64,000 nt of DNA from an uncultured Clostridia bacterium. GTDB taxonomy: Bacteria; Bacillota; Clostridia; Saccharofermentanales; Saccharofermentanaceae. Position 1 is the first letter of the stretch. Each line of letters starts with the position of its first letter. The notes beneath the pieces were generated by a model, which was given only the letters and a program-made list of their open reading frames with translations, made no database searches and had not been told where the DNA came from. The translations under genes were made by a program, and so were the position numbers. Where the stretch lies: the NCBI GenBank assembly GCA_947303255.1, contig CAMYXL010000001.1, forward strand, positions 18,231 to 82,230, given 5' to 3'. This document shows, one piece after another, positions 17,631 through 64,000 of this stretch.

Positions 17631-19400
17631 ATGAAAAAGAAGTTATTTGCAGTTGTTATGGCTTCAATGATGGCAGTTTCTGCTCTCGCTGCTTGTACTG
17701 ATAAGAACGGTACAGACACTACAGCAGGTACAGCTGCTGCGCCAGACACAACAAATGCTGAAGGCGAAGCTGTTTACTCTCAGGAAGCTATCTTGGACAT
17801 GAAGATGTTCGCAGCAATGGCTGGTACAGAGATCAACAGCGGAAACAAGATCCAGGAATTGATCGCTGAGAAGACAGGTGTCCGTCTTAAGGAGACATGG
17901 CTTACAGGTCAGCAGGCTGGTGAGGCTATCGGTGCTATCATCGCATCCGGTGAGCTCCCTGACTTGATCGATGGTGGTGACGGTTCCGTTACTCTCTGGG
18001 AGAATGATTTGCTTGTAGCATGGGATCCTTATCTCGATATGTATCCAAACCTCAAGGAAATGTATACAGACGAGGAGTGGGATAAGTTCCGTATGGAAGA
18101 TGGTCACATCTATTGGGCTAACGTATTCGGTAACCACTATAAGGGAATCGATACATCAACAGGCCACAATGGTGAGGCTTTCTGGATCCAGGTTCGTGTA
18201 CTTGAGGATGCTGGTTATCCACAGGTTCAGACATTGGATGAGTACTTCGAGCTTCTTGACAACTATGTAGAAAAGTATAAGACAATGCCAGACGGTGAGA
18301 CACCTCTCATTGCTTACACAGCTCTTACAGATGGTTGGAAGTATTTCTGTCTTGAGAACCCTCCGATGTTCTTGGATGGTTATCCGAACGATGGTTGCTG
18401 TATCGTTAACGTTGACGATCCTGCTAACCCTGTAGTTGTTGACTACAACACAACAGACACAGCTAAGAAGTATTTCCAGAAGTTGAACGAAGAGTGGAAG
18501 AAGGGATCTATCAACCCTGACTTCGCTACACAGTCCTACGATGACTACATCTCCATGCTTTCTACAGGCCGTGTACTCGGTTTGTGTGACCAGTATTGGG
18601 ACTTCGCATACAGCCTTATGGGTCCATTCGCACAGAATCTTGACAGCCTTGACGGCGGACGTCTTGACGAACTCGGATGTGACTATGTACCTCTCGGTCT
18701 TACAATCGAGGCTGGTATGGAAAACCAGTGGCACTCTTACGGTGACGAGCTCAACCAGTCTTCTGGTGTAGCAGTTACAACTTCTTGTCCAGACCCTAAC
18801 CTCGCATTCAAGTTCTTGAGCGACGTTCTCGAGCAGGATGTTCACGATCTCCGTTTCTGGGGTATCGAAGGTGAAGACTACCTCGTTGGTGACGATGGTC
18901 TCTACTACAGAACAGAAGAGATGAGACAGCTCTGGAAAGATGACGATTATAAGGCTAACCACATCTGTTCTTATTCCTACTGCCCACAGTGGCTCGGAAT
19001 CAGCCGTGATGGTAAGAACGCTATGATGCCTTCTGAGCAGACATCTGAGTTCTATGCAGGTCTCGCTGAGCCTCTCGCTAAGTGCTTCCAGGCTTACGGC
19101 GCTGCTACATACGCTGACATGATCGGTTCACCTGATTGCGGACAGTACCCATGGTACCCACTCTGGTCTTGGTCAAACAACCTCAGCAACGACACTGACG
19201 GTGGTATCGCTTGGCAGAAGATGGGTGAAGTTAAGCACGAGTGGCTCCCTAAGATCGTTATGTCTAACAACTTCGAGTCTGACTGGAATTCTTACCTCGC
19301 AGCATATGCTGAGTGTAAGCCAGAGGACTTCCTCGCAGAGGCACAGGCAGAGGTTGATGCTAGACTTGCAACAGCTAGAGAGAATGGCTACGAAGGCTAA
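17631..19400 (+). CDS. ABC transporter sugar-binding lipoprotein
   Basis: Lipoprotein signal ending in lipobox LAAC; IAEKTGV, IIASGELPDLI, FWGIEGEDY; strong RBS GAGGAGG; codon bias similar to tuf and fusA. Confidence 0.92.
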   Translation: MKKKLFAVVMASMMAVSALAACTDKNGTDTTAGTAAAPDTTNAEGEAVYSQEAILDMKMFAAMAGTEINSGNKIQELIAEKTGVRLKETWLTGQQAGEAIGAIIASGELPDLIDGGDGSVTLWENDLLVAWDPYLDMYPNLKEMYTDEEWDKFRMEDGHIYWANVFGNHYKGIDTSTGHNGEAFWIQVRVLEDAGYPQVQTLDEYFELLDNYVEKYKTMPDGETPLIAYTALTDGWKYFCLENPPMFLDGYPNDGCCIVNVDDPANPVVVDYNTTDTAKKYFQKLNEEWKKGSINPDFATQSYDDYISMLSTGRVLGLCDQYWDFAYSLMGPFAQNLDSLDGGRLDELGCDYVPLGLTIEAGMENQWHSYGDELNQSSGVAVTTSCPDPNLAFKFLSDVLEQDVHDLRFWGIEGEDYLVGDDGLYYRTEEMRQLWKDDDYKANHICSYSYCPQWLGISRDGKNAMMPSEQTSEFYAGLAEPLAKCFQAYGAATYADMIGSPDCGQYPWYPLWSWSNNLSNDTDGGIAWQKMGEVKHEWLPKIVMSNNFESDWNSYLAAYAECKPEDFLAEAQAEVDARLATARENGYEG

Positions 19401-58301: not shown

Positions 58302-58424
58302 GCAATTTGAAAACAAAATAGAATAAACTATTTGCAAGCCTGAGATATATACACCCTTAGCTTAAATGTTAGAATTATACCGTAAGTTTAAAGCTTGTTT
58401 CTTTATACGTTATGGAGTAAAAAA

Positions 58425-59315
58425 ATGACAAACATCAAGATTCATCAGTGCCCGTCCTGCGGCGGCAATCTCACCGTAGACAACGACAGACAAATGTATC
58501 ATTGCTCTTTCTGCGGCAGCTCTTTCGATTATGAGTATTTTCGAGAAGAACAGGCTCATGAGATGGGCGAGAAATACTTAAGCAGAGGCGAGTATGCCGC
58601 AGCTATCGATCTTTATAAGTTCGTATTGGATAAGAATCCGCATGATTTTATTTCTCTCAGGGGTCTGATGCTCGCGTCGGCACGCCTGAAGGAGATGAAG
58701 GAACTGACCTCCAAAGTCGGCACTGAAGGTTTCTCATATGACACAAAGCAGGTTGATTTCATCTGCGGCAGTGCTTCTCCGGATGACAAAGAATATTTTG
58801 ACGGTATGTCAAAGATTTATTCCGATATTAAGTCCGTCTCGGCCCTGGTCGAAGAGCAGAATGTTCTTCGTAAGGAAAAGAGGAGGATCGAGGACAAGAT
58901 CCATCTCGAGCTCAAGAGCCGTGAAGAGTGCAGTGTCAAAGACAGATACGGAACCGGACATGATCCGATAAAGGCTTTTATAGCGATGACCGCTATCTGC
59001 GGATTTTTCCTTCTGGTAATCCTCGTCCTGGTGATAGTAGGACTTTTTACGGAAGATTGGGTAGTCGGAATCGGTTTTATGCTCCTTCTTCTGGCGGTCC
59101 CGTTGACAATCATCGATTTTTTGATAGTATTCCCGCGCTTCAAGAAGGCAAGGGAGATCGATGCCAGGATCGGTAAATACGGCATCGAGTCCGGCAAGCG
59201 TCAGAGAAGGATCAACGAGCTGGGCGAGCTGATCGACAAGGAGTCTTCAGCCATCAAGCATGCGTGCTCCGACCTTATGAAGAAGGACACAAAGATCATG
59301 AATGAACTCAAATAA
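58425..59315 (+). CDS. Hypothetical protein: Zn-ribbon, helical/coiled-coil region and two TM segments
   Basis: CPSCGG...CSFCG at the N-terminus, a TPR-like helix pair, a coiled coil and two hydrophobic segments. ATG at 58425 after GGAG. Confidence 0.65.
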   Translation: MTNIKIHQCPSCGGNLTVDNDRQMYHCSFCGSSFDYEYFREEQAHEMGEKYLSRGEYAAAIDLYKFVLDKNPHDFISLRGLMLASARLKEMKELTSKVGTEGFSYDTKQVDFICGSASPDDKEYFDGMSKIYSDIKSVSALVEEQNVLRKEKRRIEDKIHLELKSREECSVKDRYGTGHDPIKAFIAMTAICGFFLLVILVLVIVGLFTEDWVVGIGFMLLLLAVPLTIIDFLIVFPRFKKAREIDARIGKYGIESGKRQRRINELGELIDKESSAIKHACSDLMKKDTKIMNELK

Positions 59316-59659: not shown

Positions 59660-59733
59660 AGTCAAAAAAAGTCAAAAAGCTATTGACAAACACTGAAAAC
59701 GGGACGATAATACTAATATCAAAGAAAGTCAAA
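59660..59733 (+). promoter_or_regulatory. CtsR-repressed sigma-A promoter
   Basis: CtsR box AGTCAAA-AAA-AGTCAAA (59660-59676); -35 TTGACA (59683); -10 GATAAT (59706, 17-bp spacer); second box TATCAAA-GAA-AGTCAAA (59717-59733), with further GTCAAA copies downstream. Confidence 0.88.
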
Positions 59734-59781
59734 GTCAAAATCAAAGTCGAATTTGACCAAAGCAGGAAGGGAGGAACAGAT

Positions 59782-60252
59782 GTGGCTAGACTCGTTGATG
59801 TTATAGAGTTAATGATCAAAGAGATGCTGGACGAGAACAACGGCAAGGCGACCATAAGCAGAAGCGATCTCGCTGAGAGAGCGAACTGCGTGCCTTCGCA
59901 GATAACCTACGTGTTGTCCACCAGATTCTCGTCAGGTAACGGATATATAGTCGAGAGCCGAAGAGGCGGCGGCGGACAGATCACCATCAGGCGAGCGAAG
60001 ATCATCAGCAAGGGAGAGTACCTGCAGTCGGTGCTTAACGCGGTAGGCAATGATCTTACTCAGCAGCAGGCGAAGATCTATCTGACCAATCTCGTATCGA
60101 GCGGTGCGATCTCACCTCATGAGGCGACAGTCGTTATGGCGACGGTGTCGGACAGAGCTCTGGTCCATGTTGATTCCGATATAAGGTCTGTGGTAAGAGC
60201 CGATATTTTCAAGAATGCTTTGGTAAGTCTGATGTTAGACGGTGCGAGCTGA
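59782..60252 (+). CDS. ctsR: Class III stress gene repressor CtsR
   Basis: MARLVDVIE, LAERANCVPSQITYVLSTRF, GYIVESRRGGGG. GTG start after GGGAGG. Confidence 0.95.
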   Translation: MARLVDVIELMIKEMLDENNGKATISRSDLAERANCVPSQITYVLSTRFSSGNGYIVESRRGGGGQITIRRAKIISKGEYLQSVLNAVGNDLTQQQAKIYLTNLVSSGAISPHEATVVMATVSDRALVHVDSDIRSVVRADIFKNALVSLMLDGAS

Positions 60253-60268
60253 AAGGAAGTGATACATA

Positions 60269-60898
60269 ATGCGTTGTGAAAGATGCGGAAAGATAGTAGA
60301 TAAATCATATACAAATTATAACGGCAGGTTTTTCTGTCCGGAATGTGCCAAGGAGTTGGGACTTCCTGATGCGGCTACTCTTGCCAGCAGTGCATTCAGG
60401 TTCCTGGATGACGGACTTACGTCATTCTTCCCTCTCATGAGAGAGCAGTTGGAGTTCTCCCCTACGAGAAGCCAGATCAAATGCCCTAAGTGCGGTACGA
60501 CTCTGAAGGAGTTCGAAGCAACGGGCAATCTCGGATGCATTGAGTGCTACAACACTTTTAATGAATCCGTTATGAGACTTCTCATGAGACTTCAGGCAGA
60601 CAACCACTATAGAGGAAGGTCTCCGGGTATCGCATCCGAACCTATGGAAGACAGCAAAGAGACCAAGGAGATCGATGCAGCAGAGATCGGTTCCAATTCC
60701 GAGAGCAAGGAGCCTGAGGTTTCTCCTGCCAAGGAGATCGCGGCTGACGAGAATAAGCTCCTCAAGTATTCCAATGCAGATATCGGAATGCTCACTAACG
60801 AGGACTTAAACGAAGCCATCAAACTAGCTGTAGCTCATGAAGATTACCTTCTTGCAGCAAAATTCAGAGATGAACTCAGAAGCAGGGAGGGCGTGTAA
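60269..60898 (+). CDS. mcsA: McsA (CxxC motifs plus UVR domain)
   Basis: CERC, CPEC, CPKC, GNLGCIECY; UVR-like LNEAIKLAVAHEDYLLAAKFRDELR. Confidence 0.9.
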   Translation: MRCERCGKIVDKSYTNYNGRFFCPECAKELGLPDAATLASSAFRFLDDGLTSFFPLMREQLEFSPTRSQIKCPKCGTTLKEFEATGNLGCIECYNTFNESVMRLLMRLQADNHYRGRSPGIASEPMEDSKETKEIDAAEIGSNSESKEPEVSPAKEIAADENKLLKYSNADIGMLTNEDLNEAIKLAVAHEDYLLAAKFRDELRSREGV

Positions 60899-61876
60899 AT
60901 GAAGTGGTACGAAGAAAACGGTGAGAACAGTGATGTTATCCTTACATCAAGAGTCGTTGTGAGGCGTAACATAAAAGGATATTCCTTCCCTTCGAAAATG
61001 GATGACAGCGAGCGCGAGACCGTACAGCATCTCGTTACTGCAAAGGCAGAGGAGCTCGGTTACGAAGTAAAGATCGAGGAGCCTGCTTCGAATATTCCTG
61101 ATGCGCTCAAAAAGCGCGGCAGTGACGCCATGTTCCAGAGCAGTGACGAAGCGATCGGTGCCATGATCAACAAGATCAACCACCTGACCTTCTACGGAAA
61201 CATCAGAGGCTCCAATGTCAAAGAGATGTTCACGAGAGTCGAGAAGATGGTCATCGATTTCGAGAGAGCATTCGATATGGCTTATTCCGAGAGATTGGGC
61301 TTCCTTACGGCAGAACCTCAGAACGTAGGTTCCGGAATCACGGTGGATATCGTTGTAGCTATTCCGGGAATCGTTAAGTCGGGAACTTTCCCTTCACTTC
61401 AGAAGAAGCTTACGGTTGCCGAGTGGAGACTTAAGCCTTACATCAATCAGAACAGCGGCATCAAAAGACCTGAGACTTTGTTCTCTCTTACCAATGTCGC
61501 TACTCTCGGCATCGGTGAAGACAAGCTCTACGAGCGCGCCATCACGATAATCAACGACATCATCAAAGTCGAGCGTATGTGCCGTGAGGCTATCTATAAG
61601 AAGAACAGACTGGTCGTCGAAGATCAGTACTACAGAGGATACGGACTTTTGAAGTTCTGCAGGAAGATCGAACTTCCTGAGGCACTCGAAGTACTCGGCT
61701 GGATCAGATTCGGCTTAGGTCTTATCGATGACAAGGAAACGGGGATCACACTCTCCGTCATTAATGAGATAACAGAAAAACTATGTAAAGAATACGACCT
61801 GCATCCGCGCAGCTTCAACAGACACAATGAGCAGCGTGCAGCGTATATCAAGGAAATACTGGAAAGGGGTGAATGA
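60899..61876 (+). CDS. mcsB: McsB homolog with a degenerate arginine-kinase active site
   Basis: Position in the ctsR operon; [44 protein letters not shown]. The NEED and CPTN motifs are absent. Confidence 0.85.
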
Positions 61877-64000
61877 TCATGAAATTTGGAGAAGGTGCCA
61901 TTCAATTGATATCTGATTCCTGGCTTTTCGCCAAGGCATTCAAATGTGAGACGATCGGAAGCGAATTCCTGCTTCTTGCCATGTGCAATCTCAATTGCCC
62001 TGCCAAGAATATTCTTGAAGTTCAGGGTATTACCGATGAGAAGGTAATCGAGTGTATCGAAAGAAACGAGAGAACAACAATGCAAAAGCCGAGCGACGAA
62101 GAGATCGCCAGCATCGACTTTGAAGAAGGTCTTCACGCTTGCCGTGTTGATACAAAGCGAGTACTTGCAGAGGCCGATATCGTTGCCAACAGATTCGGTG
62201 ACGGAATCGTTACTCCTGAGCATATCTTAAGTGTCCTTGCCTCGAAAAGGAGTTTTACAGCTGCCAAGATCATGATCTACCTCAATGCAGATCTTGAGGC
62301 CATCAGACAGCAGACACTCGCTGCTATCATGGGTTCAGGAGACGACGACTTTATGGACGGCGGTTCCTCTGAAGAATCTCCGCGTCAGTCTGCAGCAGCA
62401 AATCTGGCCAGAATGGGCTCGAAAAAGAGCGCAAAGGGCAAGCATCCTACATTGGACAAGTTTGGTAAGAATCTTACTCAGCTTGCCAAGGACGGCAAGA
62501 TCGATCCGGTTATCGGAAGAGAAGAAGAGATCAACCGTGTAATGCAGATCCTCGCCAGAAGAACAAAGAACAATCCTTGTCTCGTTGGTGAGCCTGGTGT
62601 AGGTAAGACAGCTATCGCTGAAGGCCTTGCACTTAAGATCGCTGAAGGAGACGTACCTGATATCCTTAAGGGTAAGACTGTATTCAATATCGAAGTAGGC
62701 TCAATGGTTGCAGGTTCCAAGTTCAGAGGTGACTTTGAAGAGAGGATCCAGAAGGTCCTTGATGAAGCATCCTCCAACGAAGACATCATCCTCTTTATCG
62801 ATGAGATCCATACTCTCGTAGGAGCAGGTGACGGCGGCAACGGTTCCCTTGATGCAGCAAACATCATGAAGCCGATGCTCACAAAGGGCGAGCTTCAGAT
62901 CATCGGTGCTACGACACTTGATGAATACAGCAAGATCATCGAGAAAGATTCAGCTCTCGAGAGAAGATTCCAGAAAGTTCTTATCGAAGAACCTTCACAG
63001 GCAGATGCCATCCTTATCCTTAAGGGACTTCGCCCGCGTTACGAAGAGCATCACAAGATCAAGATCAGTGATGAGGCTATCGAACAGGCAGTTCTCCTGT
63101 CGACCAGATATCTGTCCGACAGATTCCTTCCTGATAAAGCCATCGACCTTATCGATGAGGCAGCAGCGAAAAAGAGGATCAACTTCCAGGTATCCACGGA
63201 ACTTAATACCCTCACCAGCAGACTTACTGAAGTAGGTAACCTCAAGAAGGTCGCTGCTGAGAAGATGGAGTTTGAGAAAGCTCAGGAACTTCACGTTCAG
63301 GAGCAGGAGATCGAGAAGAGGATCGAGGAACTTAAAAATACCAACAAGCCGGATAACGACGGCTTTACAGGTGAGCTCACCGTAGAAGATATCGCAGAAG
63401 TCCTTGCCAAGTGGTCAGGTATCCCTGTATCTAAGATCACGGAGTCTGATGCAGAGAAGCTTAAGACATTGGAGGATGAGCTTAAGTCAAGAGTTATCGG
63501 TCAGGATGAGGCAGTAAGTGCCATTGCACGTGCCATCAGAAGAAGCCGTCTGGGTCTTAAGGATCCTAAGCGTCCTTCCGGATCGTTCATCTTCCTCGGT
63601 ACTACCGGTGTAGGTAAGACTGAGCTTGCAAGAGCACTCGCAGAGGTAATGTTCGGTAATGAGAATGCACTTGTCAGGATCGATATGTCCGAGTACATGG
63701 AAAAGCACGATGTAAGTAAACTCATCGGATCGCCTCCGGGCTATGTCGGATACGATGAGGGAGGTCAGCTTACAGAGAAGATAAGAAGACATCCTTATTC
63801 GGTAGTCCTTTTCGATGAGATAGAGAAGGCGCATCCTGATATCTTTAACAGCATGCTCCAGATCCTGGATGACGGAAGACTTACTGACGGTAAGGGCCGG
63901 CTCGTAGATTTTAAGAATACTATTATAATAATGACTTCTAATATAGGTGCGCGTATGCTCACTGCAGAAGCGAGCCGCAAGATCGGATTCGAGCTCGAGG
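61873..64000 (+). CDS. clpC: ClpC AAA+ unfoldase (partial; runs off the window end)
   Basis: Not in the ORF track (no stop in window). Translated in frame from ATG 61873 (alternative start 61879): two Clp N repeats, [27 protein letters not shown] (62587), [26 protein letters not shown], second Walker [45 protein letters not shown]. Confidence 0.96.

What the first reader, a model, noticed from the sequence alone, without database searches (positions are those of the whole stretch)
61873..62260. ClpC N-domain has lost both phospho-arginine phosphate-binding motifs, matching the dead McsB
Seen, ungapped register to recalled B. subtilis ClpC: repeat 1 FTERA becomes FGEGA (TEH becomes SEF); repeat 2 YTPRA becomes CRVDT, a charge reversal of Arg to Asp (TEH becomes PEH). 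Known: the T-x-R-A motifs bind the pArg phosphate and the two glutamates bind the guanidinium. The glutamates are kept, and the AAA+ modules are highly conserved. Inference: writer and reader have co-degenerated, giving a re-wired substrate-recognition surface, possibly for a new degron or adaptor.
Basis: partly seen in the sequence, partly recalled or inferred. Interest (0 to 1): 0.65.

Follow-up and report, generated by a model that had tools for sequence, protein, structure and literature searches.

The report
ClpC blind to phospho-arginine tags
In about a hundred uncultured rumen Clostridia species, the kinase that phosphorylates arginine, the phosphatase that reverses it and the ClpC domain that reads the mark have all lost their key residues, yet the proteins stay under strong selection, so the stress-protease machinery seems to have been repurposed.

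Summary
In an ungapped register against B. subtilis ClpC (checked against PDB 5HBN), FTERA is FGEGA and YTPRA is CRVDT. Both glutamates (E31, E116) are kept.

The loss is clade-wide:
- All ~95 species of the window's genus score as degenerate on McsB. All 31 operons read there have ClpC T81→Arg and R83→Asp/Glu.
- Seven sister genera and 57 canonical-McsB operons from ~45 Clostridia families all keep [T/S]81, R83, E32 and E106.
- I found a third co-loss. The YwlE-type phospho-arginine phosphatase domain, fused to TsaC, has lost its catalytic P-loop arginine in this genus only.

This is not decay:
- The N-domain still folds as a Clp_N domain (pLDDT 90).
- dN/dS is 0.01–0.06.
- Its most conserved patch is the changed site itself: invariant Arg91, acidic residue 93, and Pro-Glu-His at 115–117.
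- Residues that hold ClpC in its resting state in S. aureus (T7, R9, D356) are also replaced.

The coupling is one-way. ClpC pocket loss occurs only where McsB is degenerate or absent, but several dead-McsB lineages keep canonical pockets.

Most likely ClpC here cannot recognise phospho-arginine and works with non-catalytic McsA/McsB. This is a new variant of a known system, and no biochemistry has tested it.

The parts
59660..59676 (+). CtsR operator (perfect heptad direct repeat AGTCAAAAAAAGTCAAA) just upstream of ctsR. A weaker second copy lies at 59717-59733.
   Evidence: Pattern search, 0 mismatches. It shows the operon is still a class III heat-shock unit.
59683..60252 (+). ctsR. The true start is probably downstream of the listed TTG, because the operator copies overlap the 5' end of the ORF.
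   Evidence: Pfam CtsR and CtsR_C, E 6e-28 and 3e-16. The RGGGG wing is kept.
60269..60898 (+). mcsA, with two CxxC...CxxC zinc ribbons and a UVR-like tail.
   Evidence: NCBIfam McsA match far below cut-off (52.6 against 210 bits). An mcsA-like ORF is present in 31/31 operons read in this genus.
60899..61876 (+). mcsB pseudokinase. NEEDH is NKINH, SCPTN is AEPQN, GLR is GIT, VRG..GEGS is LKP..NQNS.
   Evidence: Alignment to PDB McsB 8WTB/6TV6, motif table, PF00217 81 bits against about 200-266 in canonical McsB. dN/dS 0.04-0.09.
61873..64000 (+). clpC. First 709 of 862 codons; the gene ends at window coordinate 64461, outside the window.
   Evidence: It is the only Clp_N / Hsp100 gene in the genome.
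61888..61896 (+). G6-E7-G8, at the position of B. subtilis T7-E8-R9 (N-cap of helix 1; pArg1 pocket and resting-state contact with the neighbouring M-domain).
   Evidence: PMC12583610 gives the roles of T7 and R9.
61960..61968 (+). S30-E31-F32, at the position of T31-E32-H33. The pArg2 glutamate is kept.
   Evidence: Across the genus the glutamate at this position is kept in only 50% of species.
62140..62160 (+). C90-R91-V92-D93-T94-K95-R96, at the position of Y80-T81-P82-R83-A84-K85-K86. The genus-wide motif is R-[VIL]-[DE]-x-[KR]-R.
   Evidence: R91 is 30/30, an acidic residue at 93 is 30/30, K/R95 is 30/30 and R96 is 28/30 in the genus. The canonical set has T/S81 57/57 and R83 57/57.
62215..62223 (+). 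P115-E116-H117, at the position of T105-E106-H107. The pArg1 glutamate is kept.
   Evidence: P is 30/30, E 27/30 and H 30/30 in the genus. Pro at this position is also common with canonical McsB in this order.
63034..63036 (+). P388 in GLRPRYE, at the position of S. aureus D356 (Mtb D364), the AAA1 partner of N-domain K85 in the resting state.
   Evidence: D in 42/42 class-wide operons with canonical McsB. In this genus it is P 19, S 7, G/Q/K/L 1 each, and never D or E. Role from PMC12583610.
63982..63990 (+). I704-G705-F706, the ClpP-docking loop.
   Evidence: Sequence read directly. One ClpP gene is in the genome.

Best explanation
This ClpC belongs to a genus-wide lineage of roughly 100 uncultured rumen Clostridia species in which phospho-arginine signalling has been dismantled while its proteins were kept.

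Shown by sequence:
- McsB has lost the catalytic Glu, the Cys and the ATP-binding arginines.
- The YwlE-type phospho-arginine phosphatase domain (fused to TsaC/Sua5) has lost its P-loop arginine.
- Both ClpC N-domain pArg pockets have lost the helix-capping threonine. The second pocket also carries a charge reversal (T81 to Arg, R83 to Asp/Glu).
- The N-domain still folds as a Clp_N double repeat.
- It is under strong purifying selection.
- Its best-conserved surface is the changed site itself (R91, D/E93, K/R95, R96, P115-E116-H117).

Inferred:
- ClpC here no longer recognises phospho-arginine.
- The heat-shock (CtsR) operon now makes a ClpCP protease whose N-domain uses the converted patch for a phosphorylation-independent contact. 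The most plausible partner is the co-transcribed, co-accelerated, non-catalytic McsA/McsB pair, because no MecA or ClpS gene is present.
- T7, R9 and D356 anchor the autoinhibited resting state in S. aureus ClpC, and mutating them there gives adaptor-independent activity. All three are replaced here, so this ClpC is probably not held in the canonical N-domain-anchored resting state and must be controlled differently.
For: - Register and substitutions.
- McsB motifs dead in the window and in every operon read in the genus.
- Bimodal PF00217 scores: 67-126 bits in about 95 species of the genus against 193-219 bits in seven sister genera.
- Sister genera and same-order families keep S/T-x-R, T-x-R and both glutamates.
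- YwlE-type P-loop is VLFVC[TS]GNTCRSP in 14 sister-genus genomes, and CKNNRALS / CDDNTCLS / CDDNINLS (Arg to Leu) in all 6 genus members read. The roles of C7-X5-R13 and of Thr at PX5 come from PMC8001253.
- Class-wide association: 0/48 against 8/14 lineages.
- YwlE-type genes were found in three of four canonical-McsB control genomes (the fourth has a YwlE-like gene with Ile at the specificity position) and in no other degenerate-McsB lineage checked; one hit, from lineage f19, could not be read.
- Fold retained: AlphaFold2 pLDDT 89.9, pTM 0.85. Foldseek top hits are ClpC N-domains including 5HBN, target-normalised TM-score 0.83-0.87.
- Purifying selection: N-domain dN/dS 0.009-0.055, McsB 0.037-0.09.
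- Conservation switch at the pArg2 position.
- D356 replaced throughout the genus.
- Roles of T7, R9, K85-D356, E32 and E106 in pArg binding and in the resting state: PMC12583610.
- The genome has one ClpP, one Hsp100, no MecA and no ClpS.
- mcsA is kept in 31/31 operons.
- At equal D1 divergence (0.17), the N-domain and McsB have diverged about 1.5 times more in this genus than in the sister genera.
Against: - There is no biochemistry. Loss of pArg binding is inferred from residues, and I could not read the primary structure paper (Trentini 2016) to confirm the exact phosphate ligands.
- Both glutamates survive in this genome.
- Dead-McsB lineages f45 and f8 keep canonical ClpC pockets, and so do most McsB-less lineages and, per the literature, Actinobacteria. 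Pocket residues are therefore conserved for reasons other than McsB, and their loss here is not a simple consequence of kinase death.
- The partner of the new patch is unknown. No complex model could be made.
- The partial correlation of N-domain and McsB distances is as high in sister genera (0.69) as in this genus (0.74), so it does not single out a new interface.
- Within the window's family, all the degenerate species form one clade, which counts as a single evolutionary event.
Confidence: 0.6

Rival explanations
1. The changes are mainly about autoinhibition, not recognition. The N-domain substitutions (T7, R9, T81/R83) and the D356 replacement abolish the N-domain-anchored resting state. 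The result is a constitutively primed ClpC controlled only by CtsR-dependent transcription. The conserved R91-D/E93-PEH patch is an internal structural solution, for example an intramolecular salt bridge filling the old pocket, and has no new ligand.
For: - In S. aureus ClpC, T7D, R9A, K85A, D356A and E32A/E106A all give MecA-independent proteolysis (PMC12583610).
- All of T7, R9 and D356 are replaced here, and D356 is never acidic in the genus.
- Position 9 is mostly Asp/Glu in the genus, opposite the retained E435.
- No MecA or ClpS gene is present.
Against: - It does not explain why mcsA and the dead mcsB are kept in every operon under dN/dS below 0.1.
- Derepressed ClpC mutants are described as toxic in the literature.
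- The M-domain tip EFEKA, which is needed for the resting state, is conserved.
- Lineage f30/g90 lost the pocket residues but kept D/E356.
Confidence: 0.2
2. Neutral drift. Once the kinase died, the pArg pockets were freed from constraint and are simply decaying. The N-domain has no specific new role.
For: - The pArg1-side residues and E32 vary within the genus (E32 is kept in 50%).
- The ratio of N-domain to D1 divergence is 3.8 in the genus against 2.4-2.6 elsewhere.
- Other dead-McsB lineages show piecemeal losses such as R83K, E106D and E106H.
Against: - N-domain dN/dS is 0.009-0.055 among close relatives.
- R at position 81 and an acidic residue at 83 are invariant in 30/30 divergent species. 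This is a switch, not scatter.
- The predicted fold is confident.
- No truncations or stop codons are seen in about 95 species.
Confidence: 0.12
3. The N-domain still reads phospho-arginine, or another phospho-mark, through different residues. The mark would be written by an unrecognised kinase, as proposed for Actinobacteria, which lack McsB.
For: - Both glutamates, the guanidinium ligands whose mutation abolishes pArg binding, are kept in this genome.
- pArg and conserved ClpC1 pockets exist in Actinobacteria without McsB (PMC9604228, PMC10149685).
Against: - The only YwlE-type phosphatase domain has lost its catalytic arginine.
- Both helix-capping threonines are gone. A ClpC2 T99A mutation alone abolishes pArg binding (PMC13345244).
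- R83 is replaced by an acid, which would repel phosphate.
- Half of the genus has also lost E32.
Confidence: 0.06

Closest known systems
B. subtilis / S. aureus ClpC with its phospho-arginine-reading N-domain (PDB 5HBN; ctsR-mcsA-mcsB-clpC class III heat-shock operon)
   Same: - Same operon order, with a CtsR operator.
- Same ClpC architecture: Clp_N double repeat, D1, short M-domain with an EFEKA tip, D2 and an IGF loop for ClpP.
- Same N-domain fold (target-normalised TM-score about 0.85).
- Both pocket glutamates are present.
   Different: - T7 to Gly, R9 to Gly, T81 to Arg, R83 to Asp.
- The AAA1 residue D356, which pairs with K85, is Pro.
- McsB is catalytically dead.
- There is no MecA.
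- N-domain identity to characterised ClpC is only 22-26%.
McsB protein arginine kinase (PDB 6FH1, 6TV6, 8WTB) with its activator McsA
   Same: Phosphagen-kinase-like domain plus C-terminal dimerisation domain, with full-length alignment. It is encoded between mcsA and clpC.
   Different: The NEEDH motif, the catalytic Cys167 and three phosphate-binding arginines/Glu are all replaced. It scores 153 bits against a 385-bit NCBIfam cut-off.
YwlE / PtpB phospho-arginine phosphatase (LMW-PTP with Thr at P-loop position 5)
   Same: The domain is linked to TsaC/Sua5, as ywlC and ywlE are neighbours in Bacillus. Sister genera carry the exact CTGNTCRS signature.
   Different: In this genus the P-loop arginine is Leu (CKNNRALS in this genome). 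The domain survives only as the tail of a TsaC fusion.
Mycobacterial ClpC1 N-domain and ClpC2 (pArg pockets kept without any McsB)
   Same: They show that the ClpC-type N-domain and McsB need not be lost or kept together.
   Different: This is the opposite pattern. Here writer, eraser and reader are all retained as genes but are chemically disabled.
ClpI of Actinomycetota (Clp unfoldase class lacking both pArg sites; PMC10149685)
   Same: An Hsp100 N-domain without either pArg site.
   Different: ClpI is a separate paralogue family alongside ClpC. Here the sole, operon-linked ClpC orthologue itself has changed.

Membership tests
ClpC (class I Hsp100 unfoldase partnering ClpP) | Two AAA+ modules with Walker A and B motifs | tested here: met
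   GEPGVGKT / FIDEIH and GTTGVGKT / LFDEIEKAH. Pfam AAA, AAA_2 and AAA_lid_9.
ClpC (class I Hsp100 unfoldase partnering ClpP) | Clp_N double-repeat N-domain | tested here: met
   PF02861 matches. AlphaFold2 pLDDT 89.9. Foldseek top hits are ClpC N-domains.
ClpC (class I Hsp100 unfoldase partnering ClpP) | Short M-domain with a conserved Phe tip, and an IGF-type ClpP loop | tested here: met
   MEFEKA (F467) and KIGFEL (I704-F706). One ClpP gene is in the genome.
ClpC (class I Hsp100 unfoldase partnering ClpP) | Genomic context ctsR-mcsA-mcsB-clpC with a CtsR operator | tested here: met
Phospho-arginine-reading ClpC N-domain (as in 5HBN) | Helix-N-cap Thr/Ser at positions 7 and 81 | tested here: not met
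   G6 and R91. The canonical set has T/S at both positions in 57/57 operons.
Phospho-arginine-reading ClpC N-domain (as in 5HBN) | Arg83 (invariant with canonical McsB) and a basic residue at position 9 | tested here: not met
   D93 and G8. R83 is 57/57 in the canonical set. Position 9 is R or K in all but four of the 57, which have S or G.
Phospho-arginine-reading ClpC N-domain (as in 5HBN) | Glu32 and Glu106 (guanidinium ligands; E32A/E106A abolishes binding) | tested here: met
   E31 and E116 are present. Across the genus, E32 is kept in 50% and E106 in 90%.
Phospho-arginine-reading ClpC N-domain (as in 5HBN) | Measured binding of pArg | not testable with these tools
   Needs ITC or MST with recombinant N-domain.
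McsB protein arginine kinase | ATP:guanido phosphotransferase catalytic domain | tested here: met
   PF00217 at 80.5 bits (cut-off 22.4).
McsB protein arginine kinase | NEEDH motif and catalytic Cys167 | tested here: not met
   NKINH and AEPQN. Motif definition from PMC11046695.
McsB protein arginine kinase | NCBIfam equivalog cut-off | tested here: not met
   Best is 153 bits against a 385-bit cut-off.
YwlE-type phospho-arginine phosphatase | C-X5-R P-loop with Thr at position 5 | tested here: not met
   The own-genome TsaC-fused domain reads CKNNRALS. Its two other LMW-PTPs read CHGNICRS (Ile, the pTyr type).

The most novel reading that the evidence does not exclude
In this roughly 100-species rumen genus the phospho-arginine degradation pathway has been turned into a phosphorylation-independent one. 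The invariant R-[VIL]-[D/E]-x-[K/R]-R plus P-E-H patch, built on the former pArg2/pArg1 residues of the ClpC N-domain, would be a new docking site for the non-catalytic McsA/pseudo-McsB pair or for an unmodified degron. ClpC would have given up the N-domain-anchored resting state. Similar conversions may be under way independently in other Clostridia families with pseudo-McsB. That would make kinase-independent adaptor activity a general second function of McsB.
Probability: 0.3. Interest if true: 0.75.

Novelty: new variant of a known kind. Interest (0 to 1): 0.62.

Why it matters
The pArg-ClpC pathway is the bacterial counterpart of ubiquitin tagging, and the ClpC N-domain is a drug and BacPROTAC target.

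- This argues that McsA/McsB have a function that does not need kinase activity.
- It separates the two jobs of the pocket residues. Lineages with a dead kinase and intact pockets point to the autoinhibition or adaptor role. Lineages that lost both show what changes when that role goes too.
- It supplies natural variants at T7, R9, T81, R83 and D356 for testing the recent resting-state model of ClpC control.
- It shows that genome annotation as 'protein arginine kinase' is wrong for many Clostridia.

Tried and rejected
- Primary literature: I tried to read Trentini 2016, Suskiewicz 2019 and Weinhäupl 2018 for the exact pArg ligands. None is held. I relied instead on PMC12583610, PMC13345244 and PMC11046695. 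The BacPROTAC paper did not list the pocket residues.
- Locus search: the search for related loci with an alignment of the genus McsB sequences failed because no stretch was conserved enough.
- Homologue search: the word-indexed search on the N-domain gave only 9 close homologues. That was enough for an AlphaFold2 alignment but not for a census.
- Mirror-tree test: the N-domain against McsB test was not discriminating. The partial correlation is 0.74 in the genus and 0.69 in the sister genera. My first version used unaligned D1 segments and was discarded.
I could not test whether R91 salt-bridges to E31 or E116, and no complex prediction was possible.
- I considered an alignment artefact and rejected it, because three independent alignments and the model's helix N-caps agree.
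- I considered a second, canonical ClpC/ClpB/ClpE or a second McsB elsewhere in the genome and rejected it.
- A literature search for 'McsB pseudokinase' found nothing relevant.
Full report
**What is there.**

Window 59683-64000 holds a class III heat-shock operon: ctsR (59683-60252), mcsA (60269-60898), mcsB (60899-61876) and clpC (from 61873). A perfect CtsR operator, AGTCAAAAAAAGTCAAA, sits at 59660-59676.

clpC overlaps the mcsB stop by 4 nt and runs past the window end. The genome contig gives an 862-aa protein ending at window coordinate 64461. It has:
- two intact AAA+ modules;
- an M-domain tip, MEFEKA;
- a KIGFEL ClpP-docking loop.

It is the only Clp_N / Hsp100 protein in the 94%-complete genome. 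That genome also has one ClpP, no MecA and no ClpS.

**Checking the observation.**

I confirmed my recalled B. subtilis ClpC N-domain as 100% identical to PDB 5HBN.

| B. subtilis | This ClpC |
|---|---|
| F6-T7-E8-R9-A10 | F5-G6-E7-G8-A9 |
| T31-E32-H33 | S30-E31-F32 |
| Y80-T81-P82-R83-A84 | C90-R91-V92-D93-T94 |
| T105-E106-H107 | P115-E116-H117 |

An AlphaFold2 model of residues 1-165 is confident (pLDDT 89.9, pTM 0.85). It places G6 and R91 at the N-caps of helices 1 and 5. Foldseek returns ClpC N-domains as best matches, including 5HBN, at target-normalised TM-score 0.83-0.87 and 22-26% identity. The domain is therefore a real Clp_N fold with changed pocket residues.

**What the residues do.**

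All of the following comes from PMC12583610:
- The N-domain has two pArg pockets.
- E106 is the crucial determinant of pArg1, and T7 is part of that site, with R9 at or near it.
- E32 is the determinant of pArg2.
- The same pockets anchor the autoinhibited resting state, through T7-E426 and R9-E435 contacts to the neighbouring M-domain and a K85-D356 contact to AAA1.
- T7D, R9A, K85A, D356A and E32A/E106A all make ClpC active without MecA.

In ClpC2, mutating the conserved pocket threonine (T99A) abolishes pArg binding (PMC13345244).

I could not obtain the primary structure paper. The role of R83 as a phosphate ligand therefore rests on its invariance (below) and on my own recollection.

**McsB.**

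The adjacent McsB aligns over its full length to solved McsB structures, but the catalytic motifs are gone:
- NEEDHIRIQ is NKINHLTFY;
- SCPTNVGTGLRAS is [13 protein letters not shown];
- VRGIYGEGS is LKPYINQNS.

The catalytic Cys167 and the NEEDH motif define the active site (PMC11046695).

**Phylogenetic extent.**

I scored PF00217 across 143 genomes of the window's family. The result is strictly bimodal:
- 67-126 bits in all of the roughly 95 species of the window's genus that have a match;
- 193-219 bits in the complete genes of the seven sister genera.

I read 31 operons from the genus:
- All lack E121 and C167, and most of the other catalytic-site residues scored are also replaced.
- All have ClpC T81 to Arg and R83 to Asp/Glu.
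- All keep mcsA.

Eleven sister-genus operons and eight from other families of the order have McsB with NEEDH, CPTN and VRG..GE.S, except that one sister genus has only C167Y. Their ClpC has S-E-R or T-x-R in repeat 1, T-[NP]-R in repeat 2, and both glutamates.

**A third co-loss.**

The genome's only YwlE-like domain is the C-terminal part of a 602-aa TsaC/Sua5 fusion on contig C19, outside the window.
- In 14 sister-genus genomes its P-loop is VLFVC[TS]GNTCRSP. This is the YwlE signature, with the catalytic C-X5-R and the Thr that specifies pArg (PMC8001253).
- In all six genus members read it is CKNNRALS, CKNNRTLS, CDDNTCLS, CDDNTCMS or CDDNINLS. The essential arginine is Leu in five and Met in one.
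- The two other LMW-PTPs of this genome read CHGNICRS, the pTyr type.

Writer, eraser and reader are therefore all chemically disabled in the same clade.

**Is the coupling general?**

In a 400-genome sample of the class, most McsB score 1e-55 to 1e-79, and several lineages score far lower. I fetched 26 weak-scoring and 40 canonical operons.

With the earlier loci this gives 57 operons in about 45 families with the full McsB catalytic set. All 57 have [T/S]7, E32, [T/S]81, R83 and E106 in ClpC.

Among lineages with degenerate McsB:

| Lineage | ClpC pocket residues |
|---|---|
| Window's genus | lost |
| f30, genera g90, g102, g212 | lost |
| f30/g229 | E106D |
| f19 | R9N; one genome R83K |
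| f72 | T7N, E106H |
| f27 | R83K |
| f45 (two genera) | intact |
| f8 (two genera) | intact |
| f30/g221 | intact |
| C167Y-only sister genus | intact |

At lineage level the loss is 0/48 against 8/14 (Fisher p about 9e-7). At family level it is 0/41 against 5/7 (p about 1e-5). These counts ignore finer phylogenetic structure.

YwlE-type genes (CTGNTCRS) were found in three of four canonical-McsB control genomes (in f30 and f45); the fourth has a YwlE-like gene with Ile at the specificity position. No degenerate-McsB genome checked had one. Those carry only ArsC-type, pTyr-type or other non-YwlE LMW-PTPs, or none, and one hit from lineage f19 could not be read. This independently supports calling those McsB proteins dead.

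Genomes with no McsB at all mostly keep T-P-R and both glutamates (seven lineages). Two have lost R83.

So pocket loss is seen only where McsB is dead or absent, but kinase death does not force it. This fits the literature: the pockets also serve autoinhibition and adaptor docking, and they are conserved in Actinobacteria without McsB (PMC9604228, PMC10149685).

**Decay or re-wiring?**

- Against four close relatives, N-domain dN/dS is 0.009-0.055, D1 is 0.010-0.068 and McsB is 0.037-0.090. Both 'dead' parts are under strong purifying selection.
- Across 30 divergent species of the genus, mean N-domain p-distance is 0.65. That is as large as across the whole class for canonical ClpC.
- The only invariant or near-invariant N-domain positions are R91 (30/30), an acidic residue at 93 (30/30), K/R95, R96, G111, P115, E116 (27/30), H117 and L119. 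E32 is kept in only half, and the T7/R9 side varies.
- Position 81 is thus a conservation switch: Thr in 55/57 canonical operons, Arg in 30/30 in the genus.
- At equal D1 divergence (0.17), the N-domain and McsB have diverged about 1.5 times more in this genus than in the sister genera.

**Autoinhibition contacts.**

The AAA1 residue that pairs with K85 (S. aureus D356, in GLRDRYE) is Asp in 42/42 class-wide operons with canonical McsB. In this genus it is Pro (19), Ser (7) or another non-acidic residue, and Pro388 in the window. It is Glu/Asp in 7 of 11 sister-genus operons.

Position 9 is mostly Asp/Glu in the genus, while its partner E435 is kept. The E426 position is Leu here. Three contacts whose mutation derepresses S. 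aureus ClpC are therefore naturally altered.

**Interpretation.**

- Shown: co-degeneration of the McsB active site, the YwlE P-loop and the ClpC pocket residues in one large clade. The fold and purifying selection are retained, and there is a new invariant patch.
- Inferred: ClpC here does not read pArg. The operon still provides a heat-inducible ClpCP protease. The converted patch serves a phosphorylation-independent contact, most plausibly with the retained McsA/pseudo-McsB, since no MecA or ClpS exists. The canonical N-domain-anchored resting state is probably not formed.
- Main rival: the changes reflect only loss of autoinhibition, with the patch being structural.
- Neutral drift and residual pArg reading are less likely (see the rival explanations).

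**Context.**

Earlier notes of this scan report kinase-dead McsB kept beside ClpC in a WOR-3 group and a gut spirochaete (not checked here). Pseudo-McsB may therefore be common. The simultaneous change of ClpC and YwlE is what this locus adds. I found no paper describing pseudo-McsB or a pArg-blind ClpC orthologue.

Related contigs come from rumen and yak-omasum metagenome-assembled genomes labelled only 'Clostridia/Clostridiales/Ruminococcaceae bacterium'.

Noticed in passing
own genome contig C19, about 18867-19346 (minus strand), outside the window: A 602-aa fusion of TsaC/Sua5 with a YwlE-like LMW-PTP domain. In this genus the domain's P-loop arginine is Leu (CKNNRALS), while sister genera have the YwlE signature CTGNTCRS. 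The fusion to an essential tRNA-modification enzyme may explain why the dead domain was not deleted.
   Followed up: yes
loci L104-L128 (other Clostridia families, labelled f8, f19, f27, f30, f45, f50, f72): McsB lacking the catalytic Cys and other active-site residues recurs in at least seven other families of the class. No YwlE-type phosphatase gene was found in any of those genomes (one LMW-PTP hit, from lineage f19, could not be read). In f50 clpC is not adjacent.
   Followed up: partly
L050-L052 (sister genus g20), L106/L108/L112 (f8), L110 (f27): The same Cys167-to-Tyr substitution in McsB recurs in three unrelated lineages. In g20 it is the only change from the canonical catalytic set, so this McsB may still be active.
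   Followed up: no
window 59660-59676 and 59717-59733: A perfect and an imperfect CtsR operator repeat. The second lies inside the ORF-finder's TTG-start ctsR frame, so the real ctsR start is probably further downstream, near the start of the Pfam domain at residue 37.
   Followed up: partly
window 63034-63036 (ClpC P388): The AAA1 aspartate that pairs with N-domain K85 in the ClpC resting state (S. aureus D356, Mtb D364) is Pro here. It is never acidic in the genus, although it is Asp in 42/42 operons with canonical McsB across the class.
   Followed up: yes
window 58395-59315, and genome contigs C7, C13, C45: The membrane protein upstream of the operon starts with a zinc-ribbon motif (Y-x-C-S/T-F-C-G...F-D/N-Y-E-Y/F-F). 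The motif recurs in at least three paralogues elsewhere in the genome. Its function is unknown.
   Followed up: no
whole genome: ClpC is the only Hsp100-type unfoldase. No ClpB, ClpE, MecA or ClpS was found. A simple motif scan for Lon (KDGPSAG) also found nothing, which is weak evidence only.
   Followed up: partly
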